Of a DNA stretch of 64,000 nucleotides, positions 51 to 58,085 are shown in pieces. Under the pieces are notes generated by a model. It was given only the letters and a program-made list of their open reading frames with translations. It had not been told where the DNA came from and made no database searches. The stretch comes from Emiliania huxleyi CCMP1516 (taxonomy: Eukaryota). How positions within the stretch are numbered: position 1 is the stretch's first letter; every line of letters begins with the position of its first letter. The position numbers and the translations under genes were made by a program. Where the stretch lies: positions 62,001 to 126,000 of the forward strand of contig NW_005201912.1 in the NCBI RefSeq assembly GCF_000372725.1. Direction: 5' to 3'.

Positions 51-1383
51 TCAGGCCGGCGGGCCGAAGAAGGGTACCCGAGCGCCCGGCGGCAACGCAG
101 GCACCCCGGCGAGGAGTCCAGCGACCTGTTCACGACAGGGGGCGCGCGTGACGAGGCGCCGTTCGCGCCGCCTGGCCGGGCGCGAGGAAGCGGCAGAGCT
201 CACCCACACTCCGGCCGCGATGAGGGCGAGCGTGCAGAAGGTGTTTCCAAAGACGGAGAAGAGGAGGATGGCCAGCGTGCGATTCAGCTTCGGCCGCGTC
301 TCGCCGAAGGGGAGGGACGCCTGCAGACGCTTGATGACCCGCCTGCGAGGTACAGCCGAGGAGCCGCCGAAGCTGACGGCCGACGGAGAACGCCGAGAGA
401 ACGCCGAGAGAACGCCGAGAGGCAGCCGAGAGGCAGCCGAGAGACAGCCGAGAGGCAGCCGAGAGGCAGCCGAGAGAACGCCGAGAGACAGCCGAGAGGC
501 AGCCGAGAGAACGCCGAGAGACAGCCGAGAGACAGCCGAGAGGCAGCCGAGAGAACGCCGAGAGACAGCCGAGAGGCAGCCGAGAGAACGCCGAGAGACA
601 GCCGAGAGGCAGCCGAGAGACAGCCGAGAGGCAGCCGAGAGAGGCCCCAAGAGATAACCCTCTCCGCCGTAACCTCGGCTGCACTCGGCGGCATCTCGGC
701 GGCATCTCGCGGCGGTGTTTGCCCAAACAGCGGCGTGACGCCGACGGAGAAGGCCATGCGGAAGGGGCGGGTGATGGTGCCGAAGGTGAGGTAAATGCCG
801 GCGTACACGGCGAGGAACTTGGACCACTGCCCAGGCGCCAGCGGCGAGAGGCCCGTTGACTGGCAAAAGGTGAACCAGGCGACCGACACCGTCACGCCTG
901 CCGCGCGAGGGAAGGAAGAGCTGCGAGGGGAGAGACTCGGGTACACATCGGAGGAGCCCGCCCGGGAACGTCTCGGAGGGCGTCTCGGGAGTAGCACGCT
1001 CGTATCATGGGCTCGGAGTGTCGTGGATGTCTCGGAAGGCGTGCCGCGCCAGCGTTGAGGTTCGAGACGAGTCCGTAGGTGAAGAAGGCGTCGACACCGA
1101 GCTTGCTCAGCGAAGCGCGGTCGAACTTCATCCACTTGCCAAACCACGCGCGCGCGCGCGCCACCGGCGACTCACCAGCTGACTCACTCGCCATGCGCGG
1201 CGGACACGGTACCCGCGCCGCTCGTTGCAAAGGAGGCGCATATGCCGGTCGCAGCGCTGCTCCCCGCACCGCTGTCACGCCTGGCGAGCGCGCAGTCGTC
1301 CGGACGGCGTGCGAGGCGACGCCGGTGGACAGGATGAGCAGAGTGGCAGACGCGCTGAGCGTCGCAGTTGTACATCTCGTCAT
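51..1383 (-). CDS. Probable plastid-targeted multi-pass membrane protein, conserved algal type (4 exons; inferred introns 898-1050, 343-722, 126-203)
   Basis: Signal/transit-like N-terminus (MTRCTTATLSASATLLILSTGVASHA). Exons join to give LGVDAFFTYGLVSNLNAGVTVSVAWFTFCQSTGLSPLAPGQWSKFLAVYAGIYL...TRPFRMAFSVGVTPLFG with hydrophobic helices. GC-AG and GT-AG boundaries restore the frame. Confidence 0.65.
385..645. repeat. Intronic tandem repeat (~10-12 nt CCGAGAGRCAG-type units)
   Basis: Repeated gccgagaggca / gccgagagaca / gccgagagaac units. Confidence 0.95.
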
Positions 1384-4100: not shown

Positions 4101-7100
4101 TCAGGGAACGGTCTGCGGAGACGCCGACCGCTCAGAGCCGACGCGGCCGTCGCCGTCCAAGTCGATCCCCGTCAGGTTTTCGGTCAGGTTGAGCGCGTCG
4201 CTGAGTAGGCCGCCCCTCCTTGGGCCACACAACGCGTCGATCTGGCCGAGCACCAGCCGCAGCGAGACCTCCGCGTGCGGGCCACCATGCAGCGGAGTCG
4301 CGATCGGGCGGTAGATGCCGGCGTCTCGCAGCGCAGCTGGCGTCGCCGCGATGATGTCGTCGAAAGTGGCGACGCCCACGTCGCCGTCGCGCCGCTCGTG
4401 CACCAGCACGAGCGGCCGGCCGCCCTCCAGCGCCTCGCGCACCTGCCCACGGCACAACGGCGTGAAGAGACGCCGTTCCCCTGGCGACCCCTGGTGTGCC
4501 TCTGTGCACCTCGCAGCCGAGCGCCTCCGCCTGGGCTCCCGGAGCAAAGGTGGAGCTGTTCAGGTAGAGCAAGAAAGCGCACGTGGAGCGCGCCTGCGCG
4601 GGGTCGTGTGCGCTGCTGCTCGAATCTCGGCTGCAATCTCAATATCGGTTGAACCCCGTCGGACATCTCGACCGAATCTCGACCAATCTCGTCTGAATCT
4701 CGGCTCCCGGGTGCGAGAGCCTGCGCGGGGTCGTCCGTGCTGCGCAGCCGCCCGTCGCTCGCCTGCTCACAGATGGAGGTGTGGAGAGACGCGGTTCACA
4801 CCCACAGCGATCCTCGAGGGTCGCGCCGGCTCGCCTCGCCGATGCTCTCTGCCACCTCAGCCGCGCCGGCGTTGCTGGCGGAGTAGTACACGTGAAACTC
4901 CTTCCGGGTGGCGAGCGGCGGCGGCGGCGAGCGGAGGAGGTCGCCCGGCAGGAAGATGGGCTGGTCTGCGCCGGCCGCCTTCCACGCGCGAAGCAGCTCG
5001 ACGATCAGCAGCCTCATCGAGCACATCTGGAAGGGGCGCAGCCGGTGCCACGTCACCAGCGGCGCCGCGAAGACATACTCGCGCAGCTCATCGGGGCACT
5101 CGGCGCGGTGGACCTGTTCACAGCTGGAGGTGTGAAGAGGCGCTGTTCACAGCTCGTCGGAGCACTCTCCACGGTGGGACGTCGAGCGGCACTCCGCCGT
5201 GCGACGGGTCCGTCTCCAGCAGCAGAATCAGCGGCTTCTTCCGCTCAACCTATCCACAAACCCTCTGTTCTCGGCGCTCCGCGCTCTTCTCAGCGCGAGC
5301 GGCCTCTCTGCCGAACCGCGGCGCGCAGCTCGCGCAAGCAGTTGCGGGAGCGCATGTAGTCGGAGGCGGGTGCACCTGTTCACAGCTAGAGGTGTGAAGA
5401 GACGCTGTTCACGGGAGGGAGCGCATGTAGTCGGAGGCGGGTGCGCCGTCGGCGACGGCGGTCGAGCCCGTCAGCAGCACGATCACGGCCTCCGAGTTGC
5501 CCACGTGCTCCTCCAGCCGCGCGGTGTCGTCCAAGTTGTCCACGTCCAAGAAGGGCGAGATGTTTTGTACGTAACTTGGGGACGCGGCGAGCACGTGTCA
5601 GGAGGACGTGTCTGCGGCCGTGTCAGCGGCCGGCGGTCGTGCCGAGGAGCGGCGGCGGTGCGGGCGTAGAGGCAGGGGTGCGGGCAGAGTGGAGGCGGCG
5701 GTGTTGACGGGCGTGCGGATGTGGAGACAGTGGTGGGGGAGGGCGGAGGAGGCGGTGGGTCGCACCGCTGCAGCTGCCCCTTGAGCGCCTTTGCCTGGTC
5801 CTGCCCGCTCGACCACACGTGGGAGAGGAAGACGTGGTACCTGTGCACCTGTTCACAGCTAGAGGAGTGAAGAGACGCTGTTCACGGGAGAGGGAGACGT
5901 GGTACCTGTGCACCGCGGTCAGTCTGTGACGCGCTGGGGCGTGGCCGAGCGAGAGGCAGCTGGTGAGCACCGCCCATCCGGCAGCCCCATAGCAGAGATG
6001 ACCCGCGCCTACACCCGGGTGATCGGGGGTAGATCTCGGGTGATCTGGGGTAGATCTCGGGTGATCTGGCAGTCGTCCGAAATGTCGGACCCCCCCATCA
6101 CGGCAGGGGCGCCGCGCCTACACGCGAGGGCACAGGCCGAGATCATATCTCCCCCACATCTCCCTCATATCTCGTCCTACACGCGAGGAGGCACAGGCCG
6201 AGATCCGCACGAGAGGCCGCCGAGAGGTCTAGCCAGCCGTCGCGGGGCGCCGCACCCTCGTGTTTCTAGGACGAGATATGAGGGAGATATGGAGGAGATA
6301 TGCTCTCGGTCTCAGCCATCGCGGGGCCGCACCTCGTGTGCCTTTGCCAGCTCCCAAGGCGGCGTGCCCCGCTTGGAGCGAGACATGAGCGCGAGGGTGA
6401 CGGAGCGGTGCAGCGACCCCTTCCTACAGCCTCTTCCCATCCCGGCTGATCTCGGCTGGTCCCTAACGGCGGGGCGGCGCAGCACCCTCTCCTCGGCCCA
6501 GCCGGCGGCTCCCAGCGTGCAAAGTCGCGCTCCGCGTCCCTGCAGCCGAGCGGTGCAGTCACGAGGCCGTCAGGGCTCGGAGGAGGCTCGGAGGGCAGCT
6601 CGAGCAGAGTCTGGGGGGGGGGGGCCGATTGCAGGCAAGTGCCGCTGCAGGCCTGATAATGCCCTTGAGATGCCTCCGCCGCCGCTGCAGCCGGAGGTAA
6701 CAGAGTCCGCCGCAGAGGCAGAGCGCAATGAGCCCCGACGCGAGCGCCGCGATGAGTGTAACCACCCCCCTGTTCACGCCTCCAGCCGTGAAGAGACGCC
6801 GAGTACCGCCGCGCGCAAGCAAGGGGGCAGCCCCGCACCGGTTTGAACTGGTTGGACTGGTCGCGTCCTGGCACAGGGCGCCGCTAAACCCCGGAAGGCA
6901 GTCGCAACCGCCGTCGAAGCGGCATTTGCCGTTGCCCGAGCAGTTCCCCTCGTTCAGGCAGTAGCGCAGCTTCCACGGCGGCGTTGGGAAGGAGACGTTC
7001 TCTCTCTCCTTTGCGTCGAAGACAACCTAGAGGAAAACGAGGCGTCAACGAGGGGGTGGTATGTCGGGCGATGGGCGGTGCTACAACACCTCGTAGTCAG

Positions 7101-9067
7101 CCTGCCCGGCCGCCGCCGCGCCGGGCGGGTACTGCACGACAGGGAAGTCCATCCCCTCCATCTGCCCGTCGGCGTTGAAGGAGATGTTGCTGGTGAAGAA
7201 CTCGACGAGCGACGTGCTGCGGAGCGCGCTCGCCACGGCGGCCGTCTCGAGCGAGCCCGCCCGCTCGATGGCGTCGCCCAAGGTGCAGAGCGCCTATCAT
7301 TGACGTGTCGTTGTCATCCTCACCACAATGCCGTTGTTGCTCGATGGCGTCGCCCAGCGTGCGGAGCGCCGCGAAGGTCCCCGCCCCGTCAGAGTCGACC
7401 TTGGCCGGGTACACTGTGCGGCCGCCGAACGCCTTCAAGTACTCCTCCTCGTATTTCGCGCTGTCCCAACCGGAGAAATTGCCAATGTCGCTCGGCATCG
7501 ACGCGACCCACGGCACCGCCTGCAGAGCCGGGGAGCGAGGGCTAGTGGGCTCCACGCGCCGGTGAGAGCAGTGTGAGCGGTGTGCGTGTGCGTGTGCGTG
7601 GTGTGCGTGTGCGAGAGAGAGAGAGGCTGCCTCGAGTGCGTACTCGCCCTGCCACCAGCCGCCCCTCATCTTGCGGACGTATTCGTCGTTGAGGATCGTG
7701 TTTGTCAGGAAAGTGGCGAGCGGCGAGTAGGCCTCCTCCTCCTCCTCCAGGCCGAGTCGCTCCAGCTCCTCCACCTACAGCCTCGACGCATCTCGCGTGA
7801 TCTCGCGCAATCTCCGAGGCCGAGCCGCCCCTCCTCCTCCTCCACCGCGACGATGCCGCCGGCCTCGTACGAGCAGACGAGGACGACGGTGGCGCGCTCG
7901 TCCCGCAGATGCGCCAGCGCCCTCCGCATCTCCTGCCTGTACGTCGATGTGTTGACGCTGCTCCACTTTGGAACCGTCGCGTTCGCTACGATGCCGGAGC
8001 CGGCCGCGTCCGCAGGAGCCGTCAGGATCCGCGCCTTGGCGTCCTCCCACTCTTCTTCGCTGCCGCAGACCCCCCGAAAGGCAGTGTCGTCCTCCTCGAC
8101 GTACCTGCGGGACACACGTCGCGGAAAGTTTCATGGAAAGGGCCGCGAGGCGTCGCCGCCTCCCTTCTCTGCGAACCCGACTCGGAGGGCGCCCAAGCAG
8201 GTCTCGGAAGGTTCGCCGGCGCGGCGCACGCACTCCTTCTGGCAGTCGCACTCCCCGCCAGCATCGCAGCCAGTGTCGCAGTCCTCGGCAGCCTTCAGCA
8301 GCGCCTCGAACTCGCGCCTGTACGACGATACCTCGGCTGTATCTCGGCTGCATCTCGGCTGCGTCCCGGCTGCGTCTCTGGCCAGAGCAACGCCTCATAC
8401 TGCTGCGGGGCAGCATCCCAAACACGCGCAGCCCGAGGCCATTCTCTTGCGCCAGCGCGGCGGCCGAAGAGTAGACGGCGGGATCAGATGACGCTGGAGC
8501 GATCATCAGCTTGCTGTCCAGCACCGCCTGCTTGCTCGCGTAGGTGGTCAGCCCCGAGCCATACGGGCCGAGCAGGAAGTCTGCCGACGCGAAACCGCCC
8601 GACTCCGGGTGCACGAGGCGCGAGGTGGCGTTGGCGACCTGCAGCTGGCTACTGCTGTCTCCGAGGAAGACGCAATGTACGCCGTAGACGTGCGTCGCGT
8701 TGACTTTGATCCCGCCGCGGGGCACCAGCATCCGCGAGAAGAGGTCGCAGCTCCTCTGCATCTTAAGCGAGCTCGTATAGAACTGGTCTTCGGGCTGAAG
8801 CGACGCTGGCGCGCCGATGGTGATTACGCCCCTCGTCCTCTCGTTCTTGCACAGCTGATCGATGTCGGTCTCGAAGGTCAGATGAGGCGTGCCCGCTGGC
8901 AGTGACGGCACCGCTGTTGTGACATTCGTCCAGCAATAGCTTGGGTCGCACTGATCGTCAGAGCGGCCGCGTGTGTTTTCCGTCACCACGACGAGCGGCA
9001 CGTCGTACTTCTCCACGCACTCCGTGATTGTTGCCGCCGCTGCCGCTGTCAGGATCGGCAGCGCCAT
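4101..9067 (-). CDS. Multi-exon receptor-like protein: periplasmic-binding type 1 (Venus flytrap) ectodomain, EGF-like domain, TM helix, TIR domain, second TIR-like domain
   Basis: FLLGPYGSGLTTYA...MIAPASSDPAVY...VFGMLP and LGDAIERAGSLETAAVASAL...ISFNADGQ (Liv/ANF-type PBP1). CSGNGKCRFDGGCDCLPGFSGALC (EGF). VVTLIAALASGLIALCLCGGLCYL-RLQRRRR (TM). RYHVFLSHVWSSGQDQAKALK...FLDVDNLDD...VIVLLT...YMRSRNCLRELRAAV (TIR). FHVYYS...FLLYLNSSTF...EVREAL...LVLVHE (TIR-like). Confidence 0.75.
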
Positions 9068-19803: not shown

Positions 19804-21057
19804 TCAGCCGCTGCACTCGCCCCACACCGCGTCCAACGCGCGAGCGACGTCGCTCGCGTTGACAAGCGTCCGCGAGCTGCTCGACGTGGCCTCGAAGAGA
19901 ACGTGGTGGAAGTTCACCCACGGCGCGCCTCCAAAGTACGTGAATACCGACTTTCGGAACGGGCAGCCTGCCTGCACCCTCGAGCTGCGCGCGCCGCAGA
20001 CGAACTCGACGACGTGAGGTAGGGTGCAGGGTGAGCCGGTGAGCCGCGGTGCCGCCGGTGAGGGTGCCCCGCCGTCAGCCCAGCGCGCGCTGCTCGGCTG
20101 CATCCACACCACATTCATCATGCCCCCGCCGTGCGCGCCGACCACAACGCTCGCCCTGGAGAATGTGCGAAACTGATCAGCGAACGTCTCGCCTCGTCCG
20201 GTGAAGGTCACGAGGGTCTCGGCTCGTGCATGAGCACGCATCCTCTCTCGGATGGTGCTGAGCACCAGCGCCTCATTCGCAAATGGCAGACGGCGCCGGC
20301 TGAGGTCCGCTCGCGAGTAGTACACAACAAGCTGGCCGGCACGTGGCGGCGTACCGACGGGACGCACGCGCGAGATCATACTCGCCGTCCTACGGTGCAA
20401 GCTCGGCAGCCGCAGGCTGTTTGGCGACGGCACCCTGGGCGCTGCGAGGTGGAGGACGCCCGAGTCGACGCAGGCGACGGCGCCCAGCCGGACCCAGAGA
20501 ATGCGCCGCCCGGTGAGTAGCGACGCGTCGAGCCACTGTAGGAAGCGGAATGTCATGCTCGCCTCCGGTAGGTCAGTCCTATAGCCGACTACCACCGGCG
20601 TGCCAGGGCTTCCCACGTCCTGGAGCCACTGAATCAATGGCATGTGGTCAGGCATGAAGTGCCCATGGTGGAAGCCAGTGAACCAAGAAGTGTACAGGGA
20701 CGCCGGTCCGCTGATGTGCACCGCGCAGGGCGCACGTCTTAGTCGAGTCTCGGGCGGTGCCCACCACGGCGTCGCAATCAGAGGCGCAGCGCCGCCTCCA
20801 CTCCTCCACACAAACGCATTGAAGCGCAACCCGGTGAGCTGCAAGGGGAGGTAGAATCTCGCCTTGTTGATGCTAAGCATGCTCACAGGCGCTCCGGTGG
20901 GCTCATCAAGTCGTCTCCACGTGAGGAGGAGGTCGCGATGGAAGGCGGCATGCGCACACTGCTCGGCTGCATCGCCTGTGTGCAAGCTTGGAAGGCGCAC
21001 GGGATTGCTGCCATTTGTTCGCGTATCTCTGCGGTTGCTGTGCCGAATGGCGTGCAT
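19804..21057 (-). CDS. GT61/DUF563-like glycosyltransferase, intronless
   Basis: HHGHFMPD, VVYYSR...RRRL..NE, TFADQFRTFSRASVVVGAHGGGMMNVVWM, VVEF. Confidence 0.8.
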   Translation of the reverse strand: MHAIRHSNRRDTRTNGSNPVRLPSLHTGDAAEQCAHAAFHRDLLLTWRRLDEPTGAPVSMLSINKARFYLPLQLTGLRFNAFVWRSGGGAAPLIATPWWAPPETRLRRAPCAVHISGPASLYTSWFTGFHHGHFMPDHMPLIQWLQDVGSPGTPVVVGYRTDLPEASMTFRFLQWLDASLLTGRRILWVRLGAVACVDSGVLHLAAPRVPSPNSLRLPSLHRRTASMISRVRPVGTPPRAGQLVVYYSRADLSRRRLPFANEALVLSTIRERMRAHARAETLVTFTGRGETFADQFRTFSRASVVVGAHGGGMMNVVWMQPSSARWADGGAPSPAAPRLTGSPCTLPHVVEFVCGARSSRVQAGCPFRKSVFTYFGGAPWVNFHHVLFEATSSSSRTLVNASDVARALDAVWGECSG

Positions 21058-21496
21058 CGAGTGGCCTCACTTCAGCAAGTACGGCAGCTCGAGCGCCTTC
21101 CATGCAAACCGCGAGGGACGGGCGGGCGGGGGGGGGGCGGGGGCCGGCTTTGTATGTGTGTGTGAGTGAAGGAAGAAACACGAGGCGCAAACACATTTTC
21201 CCACACCGTCCGTGGTGTGGTTTGGTCGCCCCACACAGATCCGGTTCTGGCTGGCGAGCCCCACTCTGCACCACGTCACTCGCCACGTTGCAAAGCGCGC
21301 GCTCCAAGCCCGGCCTCAGCCAGCCCCCCCCACAAGTGTGCCACAGCCCGACGGCCGGGCGCTTCAAACCGCGCGGGAGTGGTCGGGCACGGAGACGAGC
21401 GAGACAGTCTCGCCCTTCTCCTTCACGACGACCAGCACGCCGCCGCCGGCATGCCTACAAAAGGAGTGCAGAGGTAGGGCGACAACAACACGCATG

Positions 21497-23029
21497 TCAC
21501 CACGATGTGACCGTGTGTTCTCGTCGAGGCAGCAACGCATTCCGCATGGTTTCAGTGCTCCGCCCTGCTGCGTGGCATCTAGCGGCGCGCCGCTCGGCCG
21601 CCACCCACACGGCGACGCTCACAAAGGCGAGGAAGACGCCGGCAGTGAAGTAGCCCGCGCCCGGCATGGTATCGAAGATGGTGGCGGTCCGCCCCTTGGC
21701 AAAGGCGCGCAGGTCTGGCGGCGTGATGCACTCGGGCTGCACCGCTTGCCGCACGAGGCGGGTGAAGGTCGAGAGCGGGCAGAGGAGGGGCGCGTGCGGG
21801 TCGTCCTCCGCCTTGGTGCTGCAGCCGGGGATGGTGACGGGGACGCGGCTCGGGGTGGTCGCCGGGTCGTCGTCCGACAGCACCGTCAGCTCGCGGATCT
21901 GCAGCGGCGTCTGGATGTCAAAGTAGAGCGCGATCTGCCACTCGTCCAGCGGATTCGCGGGGTTGGCCGGCCCAAAGGCCTCAAAGACGAGCGCGCCGCC
22001 GGGCGGCGTGTGGTTGGGCTGGTAGCCGTGGGAGAGCCACTTGAGCCCGAGCAGCTCGGCGAGGTAGAGCAGGTTGGTGTCGTGAGCCGCGTAGTAGACC
22101 AGGCGCGGCGACGGGTCGTGCGCCAGCGCCGGCTCGCGCTGGCCGCTCTCCCACTGGGTGAGCGAGGCGGCGATGTGGGAGAGGAGGGCGGAGCCAAAGG
22201 GGCGCGCTGCGAGCAGGTCGAACTCAAAGGCGCGGTACTGCGTCACAAAGGCGGAGAACTCCATCACCTCCTCCACCGATAGCTTGCCCCACGCAAAGTC
22301 CATCCCGTTGAGCATCGTGAGCTCGATCCACTCTGCAAAGTACTTGCCCGCATAGATGGGGCCCGAGAAGGTGGTGTACCAGTGCGCGGGGTCCCACGAG
22401 CCAGGGAGGTCCTCGAGGCTGCAGCTCTCCATCCCGGCCGGGCACAGCGACTTTGCGCAGCAGCCGAGGAGCTCCGACAGCTTGGCCAGCAGCGGCTTGT
22501 ACAGCCGCAGGTACCCGTCCACGCTGCCGCCGACGCGGCCCTCGACCTGCGCCTGCGTGCCGAGCGCGCACTGGCCGTTCTCTCCGCGCGGCTTCGAGCC
22601 CTGGTCGATGAGGTACTCGACGCCCTCTGAGTGCAGCGGCGGGAGCGCGCAGCCGAGCCCCTTGAAGAAGGCCTCTGCCGTCTTCTCGTCGCGGGGCATG
22701 TTCTCCTCGCAATACACAAAGGCGGCGCCGTCGGCGCAGCCGCCGTCGGCGGCGGAGAGGAGCGAGGCGTAGCGCCCCGACTGATAGGCGCCCATCCGCT
22801 GCACCGCGGCGTACCCGTGCTGAGTGAGCACGCCCATGCCCTCGCCGCCCGCGCCCCACGCCTCGTCCGACGTGTCAAAATGCTTGCCGGGCGCGTAGAG
22901 CGAGAAGTTGAAGGCGGAGCTGGGGAACTGGCGGCGGACGCCGTGACGCGAGACGATGATGGCGCGGTCGGGGACAGCGGCGGCGGTCGCGGCCGCGACG
23001 GAAGCTGCGCCGAGGGGCAAGTGTAACAT
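21497..23029 (-). CDS. Histidine acid phosphatase (AppA/Agp phytase / glucose-1-phosphatase-like), signal peptide plus C-terminal TM anchor, intronless
   Basis: IIVSRHGVR, GVLTQHG, LVYYAAHDTNL, TPPGGALVFE; C-terminal GYFTAGVFLAFVSVAVWVAA. Confidence 0.9.
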   Translation of the reverse strand: MLHLPLGAASVAAATAAAVPDRAIIVSRHGVRRQFPSSAFNFSLYAPGKHFDTSDEAWGAGGEGMGVLTQHGYAAVQRMGAYQSGRYASLLSAADGGCADGAAFVYCEENMPRDEKTAEAFFKGLGCALPPLHSEGVEYLIDQGSKPRGENGQCALGTQAQVEGRVGGSVDGYLRLYKPLLAKLSELLGCCAKSLCPAGMESCSLEDLPGSWDPAHWYTTFSGPIYAGKYFAEWIELTMLNGMDFAWGKLSVEEVMEFSAFVTQYRAFEFDLLAARPFGSALLSHIAASLTQWESGQREPALAHDPSPRLVYYAAHDTNLLYLAELLGLKWLSHGYQPNHTPPGGALVFEAFGPANPANPLDEWQIALYFDIQTPLQIRELTVLSDDDPATTPSRVPVTIPGCSTKAEDDPHAPLLCPLSTFTRLVRQAVQPECITPPDLRAFAKGRTATIFDTMPGAGYFTAGVFLAFVSVAVWVAAERRAARCHAAGRSTETMRNALLPRREHTVTSW

Positions 23030-23206
23030 TGTTGTGCTGTGCGTATAACGTCTCGTGGGCTTTTTACCGTTTCCGGCGGTAATAATGTTTGTCACGTGAA
23101 GTTTTAGGTTTGTTGTTGGCAGTGACGTAGTGGCGGCGCTCCAAGAGTGGTGCTCTTGGGAAGAGGTTCCTCCTTTCCGCTCCCCCCCTGCAACTGCAAG
23201 GCGCGA

Positions 23207-23207
<1 letters not shown>

Positions 23208-23301
<94 letters not shown>
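23208..23301. repeat. (CA)n microsatellite
   Basis: Perfect dinucleotide run. Confidence 0.99.
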
Positions 23302-23303
<2 letters not shown>

Positions 23304-23328
23304 CTACGAATCTTGTGTCAAGACGCCG

Positions 23329-25086: not shown

Positions 25087-25226
25087 AAAATTCTTTTCAC
25101 TTCTAAGGAAGCCGTCGCCTGCGCCTTGTCTGTCGTGTGAATCGTGCGTGTGCGAAAGGCTTCGGTTCTAAAATTCTTTTCACTCCAGAGGAGTGTTGTC
25201 GGCGGTGCTCCTGTGCCTTTCCGCCC

Positions 25227-28200
25227 ATGGCGCTGCTTCGAACGGTCGAGACCGACCTGCGGAGCCTCTCGATGGAGGCGCGCCGCCGCTTCCCCGAGGT
25301 CAAGGAGGCTGCGGAGCGCGCGCTCCAGCGGCTGCGCACGGCGCAGGAGTCGCTGCGGCAGGATGCTCCGCTTGCTGAGCAGGCGGCGGCGGTCGCGACG
25401 TCGGAGGAGGTGCTCCTGCCCTTCACGCTCGCGCTGGCGTGCAAGTCGGAGGCTCTCCCTCTCTGTGCCCTCTCCGCCGTGCAGCGGATGATCTCGCACA
25501 GCGCCGTCGCGCCGGTCCATCTGCCCGCGATCGCGTCGCAGCTGATCGCGCGGGCGCAGATGCCGTCGGAGGACTCGATGCTGCTCAAGGTGCTTCAGAC
25601 GGTGCTGACGATCGCCTCCTCCCCGGCCCTCCTCCTTACCGACCTCCTCGTCTCCCAACTCCTCCTCCTCTGCCTCACGCTGCTCGGCTCTCGCTCAGTG
25701 ACCGTGAGGTGTGGAGAGCTCGCACAAACACTTCGCAGACACTTCGCAGAGAAAGAGACTGCGCGGACAGCCAGCGCGGACAGCGCGCGGGCAGCTCGCG
25801 GGCAGCTCGCGGGCAGCTCGCGAGACATTGCAATGTGTCCCGATGAGCCCGATCCGTGCCCCCGCCTTTCGCACCTCCCCGGCACCATCTCCTCCTCGCA
25901 TTCAATCTGAACGACGAATGACGTGAGGGGAAATGCGCACCTCCCAGGCACACGGCGTCCGCGACGGGGCAGCAGTTCGTCTCGCTCCTCCTCGACCTCG
26001 CATCTGCAGAGGCGGCCGCCGCCCAAAAGGATCCCCGCGCGCCGCCGCCCGCCGCCGCCGCGCCGTCCGCCGCCGCCTCGGCAGCGCGCGACCTATCGCG
26101 GCTGTCCGTCGCGGCACGGTGCGCGTACCTCGCGGTGGTGGACCTGTGCGACCTCGCGTCCGGCGAGCCGGCGCAGTGGCTCACCGGTCTCTCGTCGCCG
26201 GTGCCGACGGTGTTTGCGCTCGAGGTTGTGCAGCGAACGCTGGCCTCGCACGCGACGCTGTTCCTCGGCCAGCCCGACTTTCGTCACCTCCTGCACGAGC
26301 ACGTCTGCCCGCTCGCGCTCAAGTGCATGCAGCACACCGTGCAGCACCAGGCCGTGACCGACTGGGAGCACGCGCTGCGCGCCTGCCACCTCACCGCCAC
26401 CCTGCTGCTCAGCTACGCGCGCGCCGTCCGCACAGAGGCGGAGATTCTGCTCGTGACGCTTGGGAAGATGCTCGAGGCGGAAGGCACCCCCATCTGGCAG
26501 CGCGCGCTCGTGCTCGAGACCTTCCGCCTCCTCTCCTCGGACGCGCCGCTCCTCACCGCCATCTTCACCGCGTACGACCTCTCGCCCTCCTCCTCCAACG
26601 CGCTGGCCACCCTCGTCGGCGCCACAACCAAGCTGCTCACTTCGCCGCAAGTCGACTTTTTGGCGCACGCGGAGTTCATCGAGCCCCTCTTCCTGCGCCT
26701 CTCCCGCTCTGCCTCAAACTCGAAGGCCGCCACCTTCAACACCGCACTCTACTCGGAGGCGGACGGGTCTCACGTCACAAACGACTACGCCGCCGCTCTC
26801 GCCATCGAGTGCGTCCTCTCCTCCGCACCTCCCCACACCTCCCCACACCTACCCACACCTACCCACACCTCCCAAAACCTCCCCAAACCTCCCCACAGCT
26901 CCCCGCAACTCCCAACACTCCCCAAGATCTCCCACATCTCCCCACATCTCCCCACAGTCCCCCACACCTCCCACAACTTCCCCAAGGGGCGTCCTCTGCT
27001 CGGACCACTCCCTGCCTGCCCTCTCCGTGGCCGCGCTCCCCCCGTTCCGTCTGACGTTTCCGAGTGCGTCCAATGTCCCCCGGTGGCCCCCCCCACACTC
27101 TCTCTCGGGCGCGGCCCTTTGCCCATACCCACGGTGCCCGCCGGTCAAACACTTGGGGCCCCCCCCCTNNNNNNNNNNNNNNNNNNNNNNNNNNNNNNNN
27201 NNNNNNNNNNNNNNNNNNNNNNNNNNNNNNNNNNNNNNNNNNNNNNNNNNNNNNNNNNNNNNNNNNNNNNNNNNNNNNNNNNNNNNNNNNNNNNNNNNNN
27301 NNNNNNNNNNNNNNNNNNNNNNNNNNNNNNNNNNNNNNNNNNNNNNNNNNNNNNNNNNNNNNNNNNNNNNNNNNNNNNNNNNNNNNNNNNNNNNNNNNNN
27401 NNNNNNNNNNNNNNNNNNNNNNNNNNNNNNNNNNNNNNNNNNNNNGCACACCTCCACGCACCTGCTGCACCTCCACACACCTCCCCACACCTCCCCAGGA
27501 CTGCCCACACCTCCCCACACCTCCCCACACCTCCCCACACCTCCCCACACCTCCCCACACCTCCCCACACCGCCCCACACCGCCCCACACCTCCCCACAC
27601 CGCCCCACACCGCCCCACACCTCCCCGTACCTCCCCACACCTCCCCACACCTCCCCACACCTCCCCACACCTCCCCACACCTCCCCACACCTACCCACAC
27701 CTACCCACACCTCCCCACACCTCCCCACACCTCCCCACGCCTCCCCGCACCTCCCCACACCTCCCCACATCTCCCCACATCTCCCCACATCTCCCCACAT
27801 CTCCCCACACCTCCCCACACCTCCCCCAGGTGCGTCCTCTCGTTCGTCCACTCCGTCGTCGCCCTCTCGGAGCGCGCGGCCGCGCACGGCACGGCGAGCG
27901 GCGAGGAGGCGGCCAAAGGCGGCGGGGTGGAGCGCGCAAAGATCGTCATCGGGGGCGTGCACTTGTCGATGTCGGAGGCGGCGCGCGGCGAGATGCAGCT
28001 GGTGCGCTCCCTCGTCTCGACGTGTTGGGTCCCGCTCTGTACCTCCCTCGCGCTGGCGACGGCGCGCTTCTCTTCCGACGAGTCGCGTGACGTTCGTAGA
28101 CACTTCCGAGACACTTCCGAGACACCTCCGAGACGCTTCCTAGGCGCGCTTCTCTTCCGACGAGGCGGTGCAGGCGACCCTCAAGGCCTTCCAGGCCTTC

Positions 28201-31200
28201 ACGCACGCATGCGGCCGCCTCTCGATGCAGCAGCCGCGCGATGCGCTGCTGGCGGCGCTCTGCCGGTACGCGCTACCGCCGCGCGCGCGGCAGGAGCTGC
28301 AAGAGGCGTCGGCGCTCTCCTTCGCGCCGCCGGACGCGGCGTACGAGCCGCTGCCGCACACGTCCCTCTCCGCCAAGAACGTGCTCGCTCTCAAGGCCCT
28401 CTTCAACATCGCGCACTGCATGGGGTCGCTGCTCGGCTCGTCTTGGAACCTGGTCCTGCAGACCTTCGAGCAGCTCGACCGCATCATCCTCTCCTCCAAG
28501 CTCACCGCAGCCTCGCCGCAGTCCGCCGAGCGCGCGGCGGCGCTCGGCGGCGCCGACGCGGCGACGCAGGAGCTGGGCCTGCTGCACACGGCGCTGAGCA
28601 ACCTCCGTTCGCGTCTGTGGCCGTCTGACCCTGACCCTGACCCGAACCCTAACCAGCGCTAGGCGCTGAGCAACCTCTTCGCGTCTGTGACCGTCGAGCT
28701 CGACGACGAGGCGCTCGGCCACTTCCTGACCGCTCTCTCGACGCAGTGCTTCGCGTCGCTCGCCCACGAGGCAACCTCCAAGGAGAAGCTCGCCGCGCCC
28801 GGCTCGGGGGCGGGTGGGACGGCGCAGCGACTCTTCGCCCTCACGCGGTTCGTCGAGACGGTGCTGTGCAACCTGCACCGCGCGCCTGCCCTGTGGCCGC
28901 TCGTGACGCAGCTGCTGCTGCCCGTGGCGAACCACAAGGTGCCGCGCATCCGCGTCGTCGGGATCGAGTCCCTAGAAGCGGAATACGTGTTCGTGTCTCC
29001 CAGCTAGCGCCCGAGAGGGCCACGTATTCCGCTGTATTCACCCGTAGTCCGCTGTATCACTGCATTCCTATCCGTTGTATTCACGCGGTGCTCTGAAGAC
29101 GCTGCACAATACCGTATTCGCGCCCTGAGGTTGGCGTACTCAGCACGTAGGATCGAGTCACTCTCCAAGGTCGTTCTGAGCGTGCTGCAGTACGGGATGG
29201 CGCAGCGAGACGGCGACGCGGCCCCGCACGGGGGCGAGGCCGCCGCCGACGCGCCGGCGGCGGGAGGGCGCAGGGGGAGGCCCTTGTCTGCCGGCGCGGC
29301 GGGCGGGTGGGGGAGCCAGGGCGGCTGGGGCGGTGGGTGGGACAGGCACGTCCTTTCCCCGCTCGAGGAGCTGCAGCGCCGGTGCGCGCACCGCGAGACA
29401 CAGGAGCGCGTGCTGCAGTGTGTCCACCAGCTGCTCCGCTCGTGCGGCGCCGGGCTGGTCGAGGGCTGGCTGCTCATCCTCTCTATCTTGTGGCGCGCCG
29501 CCACCAAGCCCGCGCTGCTGCCGCTGCTGCCGCTCGCGATCCGCTCTGTCCAGCTCATCGCCTCCGACTTCCTGCCCTCCCTGCCGCCGCCGTGCCTGCT
29601 CGCGTACGTCGAGGTAGCGGCGGCGTACGGCAACCAGGCGGACCATCTCAACGCCTCGCTCACCGCCATCGGCCTGCAGTGGACCATCTCCGACTTTCTG
29701 CTCGAGTACGCCGCCGACGAGGACCCGCCCGGCGCCTCGTCCGCCGCGGAGCCGACCGACGAGGAGGAGGAGGACGAGGAGGACGCCTTCCCCGCGCCTA
29801 GCGGGCGCGCCTCCCCTCCGCCACCGGCCGCCGCCGCGTCGGCGGCGTCGGCGTCGGCGGCGGAGTCGGCAGCGGCAGCGGCAGCGGCAGCGGCAGCGGG
29901 AGCGGCGGCGGCGGCGGCTGCCGGCAGTGCGAGCGACGCGGCGGCTGCGGCCGACCGCGGCGGCGGCGGCTCACCCGCGGGTGGCGACGAGGCGGAGCTG
30001 GCTGGGTCTGCGCTCGCTCCTGCGCCGCGGTACGGCGAACTGCGCGTCGAGGAGCCGGTCGAGTCGCACGAGCTGTGGTGCGCGATCGCGCGCCAGCTGA
30101 GGCGGCTTGCCGCTGACGAGCGGACCGAGGTGCGGACCTGCTCGCTGCACACGCTCACCTCCATCCTCACGTCGCACGGCGCGCAGCTGTCCGGCTCGAC
30201 ATGGGACTACGCGCTCTTCCGCGCGCTGCTGCCGATGATGCGCGAGGTGTGCGAGGCCGCCGCTGCGGCGTGCGCGACGCAGCAGGTTGCAACGCCGCAG
30301 TCGGCAGGAGGAGCTCATAGTCGGTGAATGAAAGGTCCATTCGTTCATAGGTTGCCAAGCCGCTCGGCAAGGAGGGCGGCGTCCCCGTGCTGATGCTCCT
30401 CCACCACTCCCGCGACACCGCCTCCAAGCAGTGGGACGAGACGTGGGTGCTGCTACTGCACTCGTCGACGCGTCTCTTCCGCGCCTTCCTCCCCACGCTG
30501 ATGGCGCGGCCGCGCTTCTCCAAGGCGTGGGCGCGCCTGCTCGCCTTCTGCCGCACGTCGCTGCTCGCCGCCCGCCGCTCCGTCGAGGTTTCCAAGGCGG
30601 CGATCCACGCCCTGGTGCACGAGCTGCTCTGCTCCACCGTCGCCCTCAAGACCCCGCGCCGCGCCTCCTCCTCCCTCCTCGCCGCCGCCCGCTCCCCGCA
30701 GCGCGGCGGCGGCGAAGGCGGAGGTGGAGGCGGCGGAGGCTTTGGCGGCGGCGGCGGCCAGGGCGGCGCATCGAGCGGGGCGGCGGCGGGTGAGCCGGGC
30801 AGCCCTGCAGACCGAGCGCGGCCGAACGCGAGCGAGGCGGCGGCGACCCCGTGGGAGAGAGACGCTACGAGTGATTCTACCCAATGACGGCTTGGTTGAT
30901 GACTCAGGCGCCGGCGACACCTCACGAGAGGCTGCCGATCGCGCTCTGGACCTCCGTGTGGGGGCTCATCGAGTCCGCCTCCTCCGAGACGGCCTGCTGT
31001 GAGTAGCAATGAACAGTCTTGACCCCTGTCAACCATCTACAGGAGCGCCTCCTCCGAGATGGCGGCCGACGCAGAGGCGTACGACGCCAACGCCGAGGCG
31101 CCGCGCGCGACGACCGACCACTCTCCACGGGTGCTGTTTGGTGCTCCTCCCACCGCCCGGCTGCTCTTCACAGGTGCTGCACGCGATGCTCGACGCGCTG

Positions 31201-49927: not shown

Positions 49928-50367
49928 AAGTGGGGCGGGCCCGGGCGGGGCCGGTTCCGGGACCGGCGGGGGCACGGGCGGGCCCCGGCCGGGTCAAAAG
50001 TGGCCGCTCCCGGGCCGCCGAGCGTGCTTTTGCCGGGCCGGTTTTCTCCTCGCCGGGCCCGCCTCGCGCAAAACAGGCCCGGCAAACCCGCCTGTCCGGG
50101 CCCGGCTGTGAGTGAGCGGGCCGGCCTATGTGCCGCAGACGGGCCCGGGCAGGACGGTTTTCTCCACGCCGGGCCCGCCTCGCTCCTCGACCTGCTGATT
50201 TGGGCGCTTCGGCCCGGGAGTGGCAAGCCGGGCCCGGCAAAGTGTGTGGGTTGGGTTTGGGAGGGGCAAGCCGGGCCCGGCAGGGCGCGCGGGTCGGGCC
50301 AGGCATGGGTCCGAGCCGGGCCCCGCAGGTGCCCGAGCCGGGCTCGGCCTGGCCCGGCGCCCCACTA
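49928..50367. mobile_element. MITE-like element rich in CCGGGCCCGG motifs
   Basis: Ends aagtggggcg / cgccccacta are inverted; dense GGGCCC motifs inside; no TSD found. Confidence 0.45.
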
Positions 50368-50538
50368 AGCAAATCGACCCGTTTCCCATCCAATATCTCC
50401 CACTCGGCCGCGGAGGCCCCAATTGAGAGCGGGGCCCGGGAAAGGGGGTTTATACTGGTCGTGGTTACCCCTCGCACGACCCCGGGCGACAGCGGGGGAC
50501 CCCGCAGCAGCGAACCCGCCACTTCCCGCGAGCCCGCG

Positions 50539-51694
50539 ATGCCACACGCTCGCCTCGCTGGCCTTCTTCTGCCGGCTTTGCTGCAGTCGGTTCGATGCCT
50601 CGCTCTCGAGCCTCCCGTCCGCCCCGCGCCACCGGCGTTGCGCCGGCCGCGTCCGCTTGCCATGAGCGCGAGTGGCGGCATTGGCGGTGGCGACAGCAGC
50701 AGTGACCCGGAGCGGTGGGCGAGCCTGAGCGGCTCCGATCTCTCGCGCGAGCTGGCGCGGCGCTCCACGCTCAGCTCTCGCGTGCGCACGTCTGCGCCCG
50801 TCCGCTTCTCGCTCGCGGCAGCTGCCGATGGCCGGCAATTTCTTGTCTCGTTTGCGCGCTTCTGGACGGGCCTCGGCGCGGCGGTGCCGGTGAACCGGCT
50901 CATGCTGGCCCTGATCGTCGCGGCCTACGGGCTGCAGGGCGTCTGCGGCCGCGCAATGCTCTACGCGGGCGCGCGGATGAACCAGGCCATTCTGGTGGGG
51001 CAGTGGCACCGGCTGATCACGCCGATCTGGCTCCACGGCTCGCTGATGCACCTCGCCTCCAACAGCTACTCCCTGTGGCACCTGGGCCCGCAGGCGGAGG
51101 CGCTCTTTGGCGCCGAGCGCTTCCTGCTCCTCTACGTGCTCTCGGGCGTCGGCGGGAGACCCGCCTCGGGGTCTGGGTTGTGCCGGGGGCCCTCCCCTGA
51201 ACCTTCTCGAGAACCTTCGCGTAGGCGGGAACCTGCTCGGGCTGTGGATGGGCGCGGCGAGGAGCATGTCGGTCGGCGCCTCTGGCGCGGTCTTTGGCCT
51301 GATGGGCGGCTTGGCCGGCCACGCACTTCGCACCTACGGCGTCGCGGGCGCGTCGCAGACCCTCTCGTCCGTCTCGCGCATCCTCCTCCTCAACCTCTTC
51401 ATCGGCAGCCGGCGCGGCTCGGGCATCGACAACCTCGGCCACGTCGGCGGCTTCCTCGCCGGCGGCGCGCTCGGCGTCCTGCTCGCGCGCGGCTCGCCCG
51501 GCGACCGCAGCGCGAGCCGAGGGCCGGTGTGGCGCGACGAGCCCCGCGACGAGCCGCGCGCGGACTCCACCTCCGCCGCCCTCGGCGCGGTGGCGGTGCG
51601 CGCGGCGACGGTGGCGGTGTGGGCGGCGCTCGCGCTGAGCACGCGCGATTTTGCGGCGATGACGGCCAACCTGCGCGCGCGCGGCTTGCGATGA
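50539..51694 (+). CDS. Rhomboid intramembrane serine protease, probable plastid targeting (intron 51152-51224, GC-AG)
   Basis: GQWHRLITPIWLHGSLMHLASN, SVGASGAVFG (GxS), IDNLGHVGGFLAG (catalytic H). Confidence 0.92.
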
Positions 51695-51961
51695 CTATAG
51701 AGGAGACGCGGGGACAGCCGTGCCTTAGTCCGTCCAGGTGGAACTCCCCACAAATGTAGAGAGGGCTGGTGGGCTATCCGGCTTTATTGAATGCGTATCA
51801 TTCTCGTTTTATTCAACCCAAAATCATCGGCACGCCCCGTCCCCGCCCGACACTTGCACTCTCCCGGCTTAGCTCTCAATGCACAACGGAGGCGGCGGGG
51901 GTGGGGGGAGGGGGCACTACGCGGCTTTAGCGCCTTTTACCTAGGTTGCTCGCGTGGGGAG

Positions 51962-52847
51962 TCAGGACAGCAACGCGACTCCGGGAGAGCGCCGCGTCAT
52001 CGCCACCGGCGCCACCGCCTCCCACGCATTGGCAGCCGGATGGTACCGCTCGACTGTGTTCATCGGGCCGTCGGTGTCATCGTCTCCCACGCCCACGCCG
52101 CCGAAAGCATACATGATACAGCGTGCCGCACTGCACTGCCGCGCCTGGGGCGTATCGTGCCACCGTCATGGGCGCCACCGCCTCCCATACGTTCGTCGCG
52201 GGATCGTACCGCTCCACCGAGCTGAGGTGGCCGCCGCCGAACCCGCCAACAGCATACAGCTTGCCGTCGAGCACCGCCGCGCCGAGATGAGACCGCGCTG
52301 ACGCCATCGGCGCCACCGCCTCCCACGCGTTCAGCGCGGGATCGTACCGCTCCACCGATCTGAGTTCGTTGCCGTCGTACCCGCCCACAGCGTACAGCTT
52401 GACATCGAGCACCGCCACGTCAAGATCGCCCCGAGCCGCCGACATCGGCGCCACCGCCTCCCATGCTTTCGTCGCCAAGTCGTACCGCTCCACCGAGCTG
52501 AGGGCGCCGTCGTTGGGCTCCCAGCCGCCCACTGCATAGAACTTGCCGTCAAGCACCGCCTTACCGACATTGAATCGTGTCGTCGGCATCGGCGGCATAG
52601 TCTCCGCTTACCCCTCCCACTCGTTCGTAGAGGGGTCGTACCGCTCGAGCGAGTTGAGCACCTCGCCATAGCCGAGGCCGCCGACCACGAGCAGGCGCGG
52701 CCGCTCGCGCTTCTTCAGCGTCTCCTTCCAGCCGCGGCGCCACGCGCGGCACGTCCCCTTGGCGGCGTGCTCCGTGGTCGGCAGCTGGGCGAGGATGTGC
52801 GGGGCGAGGTCCGGCGAGAGGAGGACCTCGGAGAGGATCCAGGGCAT
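51962..52847 (-). pseudogene. F-box-like + kelch-repeat pseudogene (stop/frameshift at ~52608, disruption near 52140)
   Basis: LLSPDLAPHILAQLP...CRAWR, then repeated AVLDGKLYAVGG...SVERYDPA.NAWEAVAPM kelch units across broken frames. Confidence 0.8.
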
Positions 52848-53529: not shown

Positions 53530-53813
53530 TCTGGTTGTGTCTGCATATGCTACGGGTCCCTAGTATGGGTTCGTCCCCTGTTCACAGCAGTGCGGGGTCC
53601 CCTGGGGGTAGGGGACCCCCGGGGAGTACCAGTATGGATTTCTTTTTCGGCCGCCAATTCCAGGGCTGCATTTCTTCTTCGGGCGGGCGGAAAAAAAAGT
53701 GGCGGTGATTGCAATTTGAGAGTGGTATATGCCAGCGTTGCAGGGTTCTGCGCTGGTATCTGGCCCCACAGCGCCGACGACTAAGACTCAGCCCCAAACG
53801 CTGACCTACGGCT

Positions 53814-53859
53814 TTAGGGTTAGGGTTAGGGTTAGGGTTAGGGTTAGGGTTAGGGTTAG
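53814..53859 (+). repeat. Interstitial telomere-type (TTAGGG)n tract
   Basis: Perfect TTAGGG units. Confidence 0.95.
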
Positions 53860-53964
53860 TCTTTTCTTGCTTGTGTTTGTATGCCAGCGTTGCAGAGTTC
53901 TGCGCTGGGATCTGGCCCCAGCGCCGACGAGTAAGACTCAGCACCGCACGCTGACCCCACCAAA

Positions 53965-57923: not shown

Positions 57924-57959
57924 TGCCCTGTACCGCAGCACGCCGCGGAAAAAGTTCGC

Positions 57960-58085
57960 ACCCCTCGACCCCTCGACCCCTCGACCCTCCGAGGGTCGAG
58001 GGGTCGAGGCCCCCTCGACCCCTCCGGAGGGGGCCTCCGAGGGGTCGAGGCCCCCCTCGACCCCTCGACCCCCTCGACCCCTCGG
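57960..58085. repeat. CCCTCGA(C/G) motif array in both orientations
   Basis: cccctcgacc and ggtcgagggg units immediately upstream of the U-box gene. Confidence 0.85.

What the first reader, a model, noticed from the sequence alone, without database searches (positions are those of the whole stretch)
4443..6838. Family of tiny introns: duplication of the next exon plus a shared ~37-nt hairpin/acceptor cassette
Six introns of one gene (4443-4509, 4763-4834, 5114-5180, 5376-5446, 5849-5913, 6770-6838; 65-72 nt) and one in another gene (126-203) end in the same cassette, consensus GTGAACAGCGTCTCTTCACACCTCTAGCTGTGAACAG. It carries a TTCACA/TGTGAA stem and a terminal AG. In the least diverged copies (5376, 5849) the first 28-30 nt of the intron nearly match the first 28-30 nt of the next exon, so the GT/GC donor is borrowed from duplicated exon sequence. 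Decay of cassette and duplication co-vary, as expected for insertions of different ages. Introners described in Micromonas and Aureococcus are TIR elements with short TSDs. A TIR-less cassette with ~30-nt duplications would be a different intron-generating mechanism.
Basis: partly seen in the sequence, partly recalled or inferred. Interest (0 to 1): 0.9.

Follow-up and report, generated by a model that had tools for sequence, protein, structure and literature searches.

The report
Tiny jumping DNA that builds introns
A 37-base DNA piece sits in new-looking introns at about a hundred sampled places in what is likely the bloom alga Emiliania huxleyi, usually beside a roughly 27-base duplication of the host gene; it likely spreads by DNA copy-and-paste, and the same duplications flank other kinds of introns, which may point to a general intron-making process.

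Summary
Five of the six proposed introns match RNA joints. The sixth (5849-5913) lies inside a longer intron, 5841-5970. The cassette occurs at 98 distinct sites in public metagenome contigs; 75 carry a duplication of the next exon (median about 27 nt), and 69 of the 75 units are 64-74 nt. One copy is precisely absent from DNA contigs of four runs. Copies carry scraps of other copies' duplications, once a whole intron. Antisense copies exist. This matches the published Replitron-1 insertion signature: fixed end, short direct repeats, fuzzy end, variable duplication. No transposase was found. The hairpin is not significant. The family is probably already listed, unclassified, in Introner supplement tables (37-nt families). 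In the papers I could search, the long duplication and fuzzy end are not described for Introners. In 141 kb, 42 further duplication-plus-insert events carry other fillers, half of them 10-11-nt tandem repeats. Verdict: new variant of a known kind, with a possibly general mechanism.

The parts
5376..5446 (-). 71-nt intron: duplicated exon start with GC donor (5417-5446), 4-nt filler (5413-5416), 37-nt cassette ending in AG (5376-5412)
   Evidence: RNA joint in 3 of 4 runs; same copy in metagenome contig L044
5346..5375 (-). exon start that is the second copy of the duplication of the 5376 intron
   Evidence: 29/30 identical to 5417-5446
5849..5913 (-). 65-nt insertion (28-nt duplication plus cassette) inside the 3' end of an older intron; it duplicated the old acceptor; likely parent of the 5376 copy
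   Evidence: 27/28 duplication; shares a junction pentamer with the 5376 copy that 0 of 86 other sites have
5841..5970 (-). intron actually removed in RNA (130 nt, GT..AG), containing the 5849 copy
   Evidence: joint 5838->5969 in 3 of 4 RNA runs; restores the frame into the TIR-like domain
5114..5180 (-). 67-nt cassette intron, present in some alleles and precisely absent in others
   Evidence: DNA joint in 4 of 4 runs, one contig with 199+168 nt sides; intron-bearing contigs in 2 of 4
4763..4834 (-). 72-nt cassette intron, GC donor, duplication no longer detectable
   Evidence: RNA joint 4 of 4; present in DNA 4 of 4; cassette 32/37
6770..6838 (-). 69-nt intron with decayed cassette
   Evidence: RNA joint 3 of 4; present in DNA 4 of 4; 27/37
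4443..4509 (-). 67-nt intron with strongly decayed cassette
   Evidence: RNA joint 3 of 4; present in DNA 4 of 4; nhmmer E 6.5e-4
126..203 (-). possible 78-nt intron with a marginal cassette match in another gene; membership and splicing untested
   Evidence: nhmmer E 0.12; not recovered at E<=0.05 by the larger profile
7294..7369 (-). 76-nt GC..AG intron of the same build (32-nt duplication of the next exon) with an unrelated 44-nt filler
   Evidence: 29/32 direct repeat and length-preserving cut; a transcript-derived relative aligns to only one copy at a time; an RNA piece ends at 7294
4594..4720 (-). 127-nt intron flanked by a 25-nt duplication that spans the splice site; filler of short imperfect tandem repeats
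   Evidence: RNA joint 4 of 4; duplication p 0.002
4103..9067 (-). host gene (approximate limits): receptor-like protein with a periplasmic-binding-type domain, EGF-like and membrane segments and TIR-like C-terminal domains
   Evidence: tblastn of transcript protein P0002; Pfam on P0002: Peripla_BP_6 above cut-off, TIR_2 E 7.5e-5 but below cut-off

Best explanation
The cassette is a 37-40-nt dispersed repeat with short direct terminal repeats that sits next to a 14-44-nt duplication of its host site, and it likely spreads as a non-autonomous DNA copy-and-paste element with a Replitron-1-like insertion signature. Steps. (1) Shown: one end is fixed at the terminal AG. Inferred: it is cut sequence-specifically, 0-2 nt past the AG. 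(2) Shown for a subset: the other end is variable and carries 0-32 nt of the parent copy's own duplication, joined with 2-3 nt of microhomology or one extra base. (3) Shown: the target is duplicated. Inferred: a staggered break is filled in. (4) Shown: in sense copies the first duplicate supplies a GT, GC or GA donor and the cassette supplies the acceptor, so splicing restores the coding sequence; in an antisense copy both sites lie in an AG-GT inside the duplication. (5) Inferred: selection for splicing explains the sense bias and narrows the length to 64-74 nt. (6) Inferred: recombination between the duplicates makes tandem arrays and may delete the intron precisely. (7) Inferred: the long duplication is a property of how this genome completes insertions, because other fillers show it too. 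The mobilising enzyme is not identified; an HUH (Rep) transposase acting in trans is my best guess. The stated confidence is for the mechanism; the anatomy is about 0.95.
For: Dispersed: 112 loci, 123 matches; 98 distinct sites among the 113 matches with enough flank; 965-1124 contigs laid per DNA run, 310-372 only partly matching. Duplication: 75 of 98 sites score >=10 ungapped against 0.2% of 3000 random pairings; 3 more of the remaining 23 with gaps; median 26.5 nt, range 14-44, in 44 clean sites. Fuzzy end: 10 of 26 fillers of >=7 nt match another site's pre-cassette sequence or the cassette tail, against a null mean of 0.9 and maximum 4 in 300. Direction is readable: the filler in L084 and L099 is part of L009's own exon duplication. 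L054 carries the whole 5' part of L061's intron in an unrelated gene whose protein runs straight across the site. Strand: of 76 sites, 56 are sense, 4 antisense and 16 unclear with a codon model that called 177 of 182 held-out windows correctly. L070 is a clear antisense insertion with a 68-nt length-preserving cut inside its duplication. In 3 of 4 antisense-looking copies examined, 1-2 extra bases follow the AG, which an excised intron RNA would not carry. Length: 38 of 39 copies in open coding frames are 64-74 nt against 12 of 17 in other contexts (Fisher p 0.008, window chosen after seeing the data; Levene p 0.07). Polymorphism. Clustering: 8 of 89 loci have a second separate copy within 400 nt, where 0.2-0.9 are expected for 500-1000 copies. 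Published match: four-point Replitron-1 signature and a parent-to-daughter chain (PMC10288648 section 9 and SI Fig. S3).
Against: No transposase or longer element with these ends was found: no such Pfam family in 58 of the 133 long window ORFs scanned, and no genome was available. The element is far shorter than the 52-53-bp ends shared by Replitron-1 and -N1, and its duplications are longer than the 2-8 nt in SI Fig. S3. Craig notes that the Replitron-1 signature may be atypical of Replitrons, and reports only single-locus haptophyte hits. No significant hairpin. 16 of 26 long fillers are unexplained, and 20 of 98 sites show no significant duplication. Unrelated fillers (tandem repeats, AT-rich) share the long duplication, which a sequence-specific transposase does not explain by itself. 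In L054 the copied stretch stops at the parent's donor, as an RNA template predicts. The search pattern required an intact 3' end, so truncated ends could not be seen. Only two antisense calls (L070, L012) are strong. Most loci come from a few metagenome assemblies.
Confidence: 0.5

Rival explanations
1. No dedicated transposase: staggered single-strand breaks about 15-45 nt apart are repaired by fill-in plus templated insertion (polymerase-theta-like end joining), which captures nearby or abundant sequence. The cassette spreads because it makes a perfect acceptor and survives.
For: The long duplication occurs with many fillers: 42 non-cassette events in 141 kb against 0-2 in three shuffles, including 21 with 10-11-nt tandem repeats and 4 AT-rich. 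L110 shows one site duplicated repeatedly with different fillers. Microhomology or single extra bases at junctions. Local clustering. Intron gain during break repair is a recognised category (PMC3443670, passages).
Against: The 3' end is fixed within 0-2 nt even in antisense and non-coding copies, where splicing cannot select it. Parents and daughters are in unrelated genes, so templates are not only local.
Confidence: 0.22
2. RNA-templated insertion: a reverse transcriptase with a long-stagger endonuclease (non-LTR or Penelope-like) primes on nicked DNA and copies spliced-out intron RNA from its 3' AG, truncating at the 5' side.
For: A fixed 3' end at the AG, a variable 5' end, variable duplications and 5' microhomology are hallmarks of target-primed reverse transcription (established knowledge, recalled). 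Long duplications are reported for Dualen and R9 LINEs (PMC9977147, passages). L054's copy stops at the parent's donor. It would allow any intron as template, fitting the varied fillers, and either strand.
Against: Extra G or GC past the AG in 3 of 4 antisense-looking copies. No poly(A) or simple-repeat tail. Total length clusters near 69 nt whatever the duplication length (sd 3.2 against 9.3 when permuted). The terminal direct repeats are left unexplained.
Confidence: 0.2
3. Intron transposition by reverse splicing into mRNA followed by reverse transcription and recombination.
For: L054 holds a whole donor-to-acceptor copy of L061's intron; strong sense and genic bias.
Against: Clear antisense copy L070. 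Most copies have a target-derived, not donor-derived, 5' part (75 of 98). The 5849 copy sits inside an intron, and several copies directly follow an AG that looks like an older acceptor.
Confidence: 0.04
4. Local gene conversion or plain tandem duplication within this gene.
For: Six of seven window copies lie in one gene; 5376 and 5849 share a rare junction; 11 of 98 sites are followed by another copy in tandem.
Against: 98 distinct sites in unrelated genes, each with its own duplication.
Confidence: 0.02

Closest known systems
E. huxleyi Introner families in Gozashti et al. 2022 (PMC9860276, Supplementary Tables 5-6) and 2025 (PMC12130899, supplementary file 8)
   Same: 2022: 653 elements, 82% genic; three families with average length 37 nt (308, 138 and 30 copies; GC 57, 54 and 55%), against 37 nt and 54.4% GC here. 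2025: a 5-copy family of about 69 nt noted as '10bp terminal direct repeats', 5' site co-opted, 3' site carried, class Unknown.
   Different: Those tables give the duplication as '?', 'N' or 2 bp and no mechanism. Neither main text mentions huxleyi. The 14-44-nt duplication, fuzzy end, parent-daughter chains and antisense rescue are not recorded in the parts I saw.
Replitron-1 / Replitron-N1 of Chlamydomonas reinhardtii (Craig 2023, PMC10288648)
   Same: One precise end at a short oriented target, short direct terminal repeats, a fuzzy other end copied from the parent's flank, variable target duplication, copy-and-paste chains.
   Different: 910-3600 bp against 37-40 nt; duplication 2-8 nt against 14-44 nt; fuzzy end up to 13 against up to 32 nt; under-represented in coding sequence and introns there; not reported to make introns; no Rep transposase identified here.
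TIR (MITE-like) Introners of Micromonas, Aureococcus and dinoflagellates
   Same: One splice site carried and one recruited from the duplication; both strands usable in some classes; GT/GC/GA donors.
   Different: Those have family-fixed 3-9-bp duplications and conserved ends on both sides. Here the duplication is long and variable, makes up nearly half the intron, and one end is not conserved.
Intron gain by tandem genomic duplication or during double-strand-break repair (reviewed in PMC3443670)
   Same: Duplicated exon sequence supplies splice sites; antisense copy L070 uses an AG-GT inside the duplication exactly as in the tandem-duplication model.
   Different: Those are one-off events; here one filler is reused at about a hundred sampled sites with traceable parents.

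Membership tests
Introner (intron-generating repeat) | similar sequence in introns of many unrelated genes | tested here: met
   98 distinct sites
Introner (intron-generating repeat) | insertion is spliced out and restores the coding sequence | tested here: met
   three copies present in DNA and skipped in RNA, though in different samples; L054 host protein is continuous across the site
Introner (intron-generating repeat) | recent gain or presence/absence polymorphism | tested here: met
   5114-5180 absent from DNA of 4 of 4 runs and present in 2; gain versus loss not polarised
Published E. huxleyi Introner families | sequence identity to the catalogued families | not testable with these tools
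   only length, GC and notes were visible in the tables; family sequences are in an external repository
TIR/MITE Introner | terminal inverted repeats at both intron ends | tested here: not met
   the intron's 5' end is host-derived; the cassette's repeats are direct, with 8/10 palindromy; folding not above shuffles
TIR/MITE Introner | short fixed-length target duplication (3-9 bp) | tested here: not met
   14-44 nt, median 26.5
Replitron | short direct terminal repeats | tested here: met
   8-mer repeat plus a conserved GCT/GGT before it
Replitron | Y1 Rep HUH transposase, in the element or in a partner with the same ends | not testable with these tools
   no genome held; records not searchable; none in 58 of 133 window ORFs
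Replitron | Replitron-1-type fuzzy end and variable duplication | tested here: met
   compared
Replitron | oriented insertion at a short target motif | tested here: inconclusive
   next exon starts with G in 97 of 98 sites and base -1 is G in 65 of 75, but splicing selection can produce this; antisense L070 lacks the GY
Replitron | sub-terminal hairpin | tested here: not met
   RNA folding z -1.05 for the cassette; DNA parameters not tried
SINE-like / target-primed retroposed copy | fixed 3' end, truncated 5' end, variable duplication | tested here: met
SINE-like / target-primed retroposed copy | 3' tail or 3' end shared with a LINE; partner reverse transcriptase | tested here: inconclusive
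   no tail in the sites read; partner search not possible

The most novel reading that the evidence does not exclude
E. huxleyi runs one general intron factory. A single insertion machinery makes roughly 27-nt staggered duplications and fills them with short copied templates, so that not only this 37-nt cassette (which would be a very small copy-and-paste element and a first Replitron-like Introner) but also the alga's common 10-11-nt tandem-repeat introns and AT-rich introns are born the same way, and can be lost again precisely by recombination between the duplicates.
Probability: 0.3. Interest if true: 0.9.

Novelty: new variant of a known kind. Interest (0 to 1): 0.72.

Why it matters
How new spliceosomal introns arise is a long-standing open question. 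Catalogued Introners mostly use short duplications or have no assigned mechanism. Here each intron records its own history: the duplication marks the break, the filler names the parent, and polymorphic alleles exist in public data. Rates, parentage, selection on length and precise loss can therefore be measured directly in a culturable, ecologically major alga. If the same signature covers the tandem-repeat introns, one process would explain much of this genome's intron landscape, and intron-family searches that need end-to-end similarity would be undercounting such introns.

Tried and rejected
No whole genome was held, so copy number and the partner enzyme could not be determined. Read-depth sums over the cassette are not copy numbers and were not used as such. 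The cassette was not found in viral contigs (2 patterns) or prokaryote genomes. Hairpin function rejected as unsupported. A 9-12-nt periodicity of duplication lengths was not found (Rayleigh p 0.27-0.51, n 44). An excess of mismatches at duplication positions 1-2 in all copies was slight (4 of 46 each) and is not used. One search had two mis-framed training ORFs and is superseded. L036 first looked like a second whole-intron transfer but follows a decayed cassette end and may be ectopic recombination, so it is not counted. L093 was read as antisense by eye but scored -2.9 (unclear); L101 scored -3.8 and was not examined further. The DNA joint 5353->5421 (side 27 nt, 4 nt off a precise loss) is too weak to call the 5376 copy polymorphic. 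Cassette-spacer-cassette joints in contigs may be tandem arrays or assembly-graph loops and are not counted. The splice reconstruction left out the intron near 5575-5765, and the region between 6491 and 6652 is unresolved. Earlier scan findings: none returned. The E. huxleyi genome paper was not held.
Full report
1. Observation. The duplication of the next exon is significant in 3 of 7 (5114, 5376, 5849). RNA contigs from four studies join across 4443-4509, 4763-4834, 5114-5180, 5376-5446 and 6770-6838 in 3-4 of 4 runs. That copy inserted 8 nt before an older acceptor and duplicated it. DNA contigs from four other studies carry the 4443, 4763 and 6770 copies, so those are spliced. The 5114 copy is precisely missing in contigs of all four runs and present in two, so it is a presence/absence polymorphism. 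Folding gives no unusual stability. 126-203 was not tested with reads.

2. Organism and host gene. An exon of the host gene matches transcript-derived proteins at 98% and a paralogue cluster at 75% that includes proteins named Emiliania huxleyi CCMP1516. The organism is therefore likely E. huxleyi or a very close relative (inference). The gene encodes a receptor-like protein with TIR-like C-terminal domains.

3. The family elsewhere. An exact 29-nt pattern found 112 loci in metagenome contigs, mostly from a few assemblies, with 123 matches. 113 had enough flank and fell into 98 distinct sites. 75 of 98 carry an ungapped in-register duplication of the downstream sequence (0.2% of random pairings score as high). 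3 of the other 23 do so with gaps, and 20 show none. 69 of the 75 units are 64-74 nt. The downstream sequence starts GT in 45, GC in 42 and GA in 9 of 98. In 44 clean, non-tandem sites the duplication is 14-44 nt, median 26.5. 22 of 60 non-tandem duplications have no mismatch. 11 of 98 sites are followed by another copy in tandem. 8 of 89 loci have a second separate copy within 400 nt, against 0.2-0.9 expected for 500-1000 copies.

4. The fuzzy end. Between duplication and cassette lies a filler of 0-19 nt. 10 of 26 fillers of 7 nt or more match the pre-cassette sequence of another site or the cassette's own tail (null mean 0.9, maximum 4 of 300). Six of these join with 2-3 nt of microhomology and four with one extra base; 16 are unexplained, as expected if only part of the family was sampled. 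Direction can be read: the filler of L084 and L099 is part of L009's own exon duplication. L054 carries the entire 32-nt 5' part of L061's intron between unrelated flanks, and a database protein runs straight across the L054 site. In the window, 5376 and 5849 share a junction pentamer seen in 0 of 86 other sites, which suggests a local parent and daughter.

5. Strand and selection. A codon model (177 of 182 held-out windows correct) of 76 sites sense, 4 antisense and 16 unclear. L070 (-17) and L012 (-12) are strong. L070 interrupts a WD40-like exon (family recalled from the motif) in antisense and has a 68-nt length-preserving GT..AG cut inside its duplication; L031 has a 64-nt one. Three of four antisense-looking copies carry 1-2 extra bases past the AG. 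Copies between two in-frame coding flanks are 64-74 nt in 38 of 39 cases against 12 of 17 elsewhere (Fisher p 0.008 with a post hoc window; Levene p 0.07). Total length is much tighter than if duplication and insert were independent (sd 3.2 against 9.3), although under-estimated duplications would inflate that contrast. I infer insertion at the DNA level on either strand, a mechanistic total near 69 nt, and selection for spliceable copies.

6. Not only this cassette. Scanning the window and all loci (141,251 nt) for isolated 20-50-nt direct repeats 45-260 nt apart gave 93 events: 51 with the cassette and 42 without (21 with 10-11-nt tandem repeats, 2 with 6-nt repeats, 4 AT-rich, 15 other). 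Three block shuffles gave 0, 1 and 2. 30 of the 42 have a period of 60-90 nt, and 25 of those have a length-preserving GT/GC..AG cut against a null mean of 16.3 and maximum 24 in 500. Two are in the host gene: 7294-7369 and the RNA-confirmed 4594-4720. Caveats: most scanned DNA was chosen for lying beside a cassette, a few events are units of one array, and most were not checked against RNA.

7. Mechanism. Shown: fixed 3' end, variable parent-derived 5' end, long variable duplication, splicing that restores the exon, both strands, polymorphism. Inferred: a staggered break, copy-and-paste at the DNA level, selection on strand and length, recombination between duplicates. Guessed: an HUH transposase in trans (0.5). 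Rivals: repair-driven templated insertion (0.22), target-primed reverse transcription of intron RNA (0.2), reverse splicing (0.04), local conversion (0.02). No mobiliser was found in 58 of 133 long window ORFs, and no genome could be searched.

8. What is known. Gozashti 2022 (PMC9860276; main-text passages and supplement rows seen) lists 653 E. huxleyi elements, among them three 37-nt families (308, 138, 30 copies; GC 54-57%) with duplication and TIR scored '?' or 'N'; the main text describes 3-9-bp duplications. Gozashti 2025 (PMC12130899; passages and supplement rows, all 14 files searched) lists a 5-copy family with '10bp terminal direct repeats', class Unknown, duplication 2 bp. I judge these probably the same family but could not compare sequences. 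Craig 2023 (PMC10288648; passages, part 1 of section 9 and the SI figure file) describes the Replitron-1 signature that this element follows point by point at a different scale. Also read as passages: PMC9977147, bioRxiv 2020.10.14.339549 (its supplements are closed and could bear on duplication lengths in dinoflagellates), PMC11282704 and PMC3443670. Ten library searches (listings only, several cut to the top rows) showed no paper describing long variable duplications or fuzzy ends for Introners or for E. huxleyi introns. The genome paper was not held, and its remark on 10-11-bp intronic repeats is recalled, not checked.

9. Verdict. It is an Introner by function and probably already catalogued as an unclassified one. 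It fails the TIR/MITE tests. It works like Replitron-1, but membership is untested because the defining transposase could not be sought. New variant of a known kind, interest 0.72. The boldest reading left open, one general long-duplication intron factory, has probability 0.3 and interest 0.9.

Noticed in passing
window 7294-7369, 4594-4720, 6424-6491, 28057 (period 82), 28584 (period 72), 31814 (period 68), 32439 (period 91): Direct repeats at intron-like spacing with non-cassette fillers, including 10-11-nt tandem repeats and a telomere-like repeat. 6424-6491 is an RNA-supported intron with a GA donor.
   Followed up: partly
L110:1-439: One site duplicated again and again in 66-69-nt units, two with different AT-rich fillers and then at least two with the cassette.
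   Followed up: partly
L097:123-500: Three duplication-type inserts within 400 nt of an aspartokinase-like gene (family recalled from the motif): a cassette tandem and two with another filler.
   Followed up: partly
contig joints at window 5113-5156 and 5372-5414: Some cassette-spacer-cassette contigs have depth many times single-copy level, differing among runs; they may be long tandem arrays of the unit.
   Followed up: no
window 7816-9019 against 4122-5842: Transcript protein P0002 is 94-100% identical to most C-terminal exons but only 62-67% to the N-terminal exons, which suggests recombination between paralogues or an assembly chimera.
   Followed up: no
proteins P0003, P0019, P0022-P0029: The 75% paralogue appears as 1450-1480-aa products on 4.5-5-kb contigs; it may be intron-free, which would make it an outgroup for all introns of the host gene.
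   Followed up: no
window 342-693: Array of about 22 copies of an 11-nt unit inside a gene.
   Followed up: no
window 6123-6323: 57-nt inverted repeat (88%) inside the 324-nt intron 6009-6332.
   Followed up: no
window 53726-53960: About 150-nt repeated unit containing a TTAGGG telomere-like run.
   Followed up: no
L026:692-736: Cassette variant with a 6-nt internal insertion and a changed 3' end.
   Followed up: no
window 19807-21066, 21500-23317, 25107-30324, 50116-51756, 52080-52607, 54765-58100: Ordinary host genes: glycosyltransferase 61, histidine phosphatase, Mon2-like, rhomboid, kelch and ankyrin/U-box proteins.
   Followed up: no
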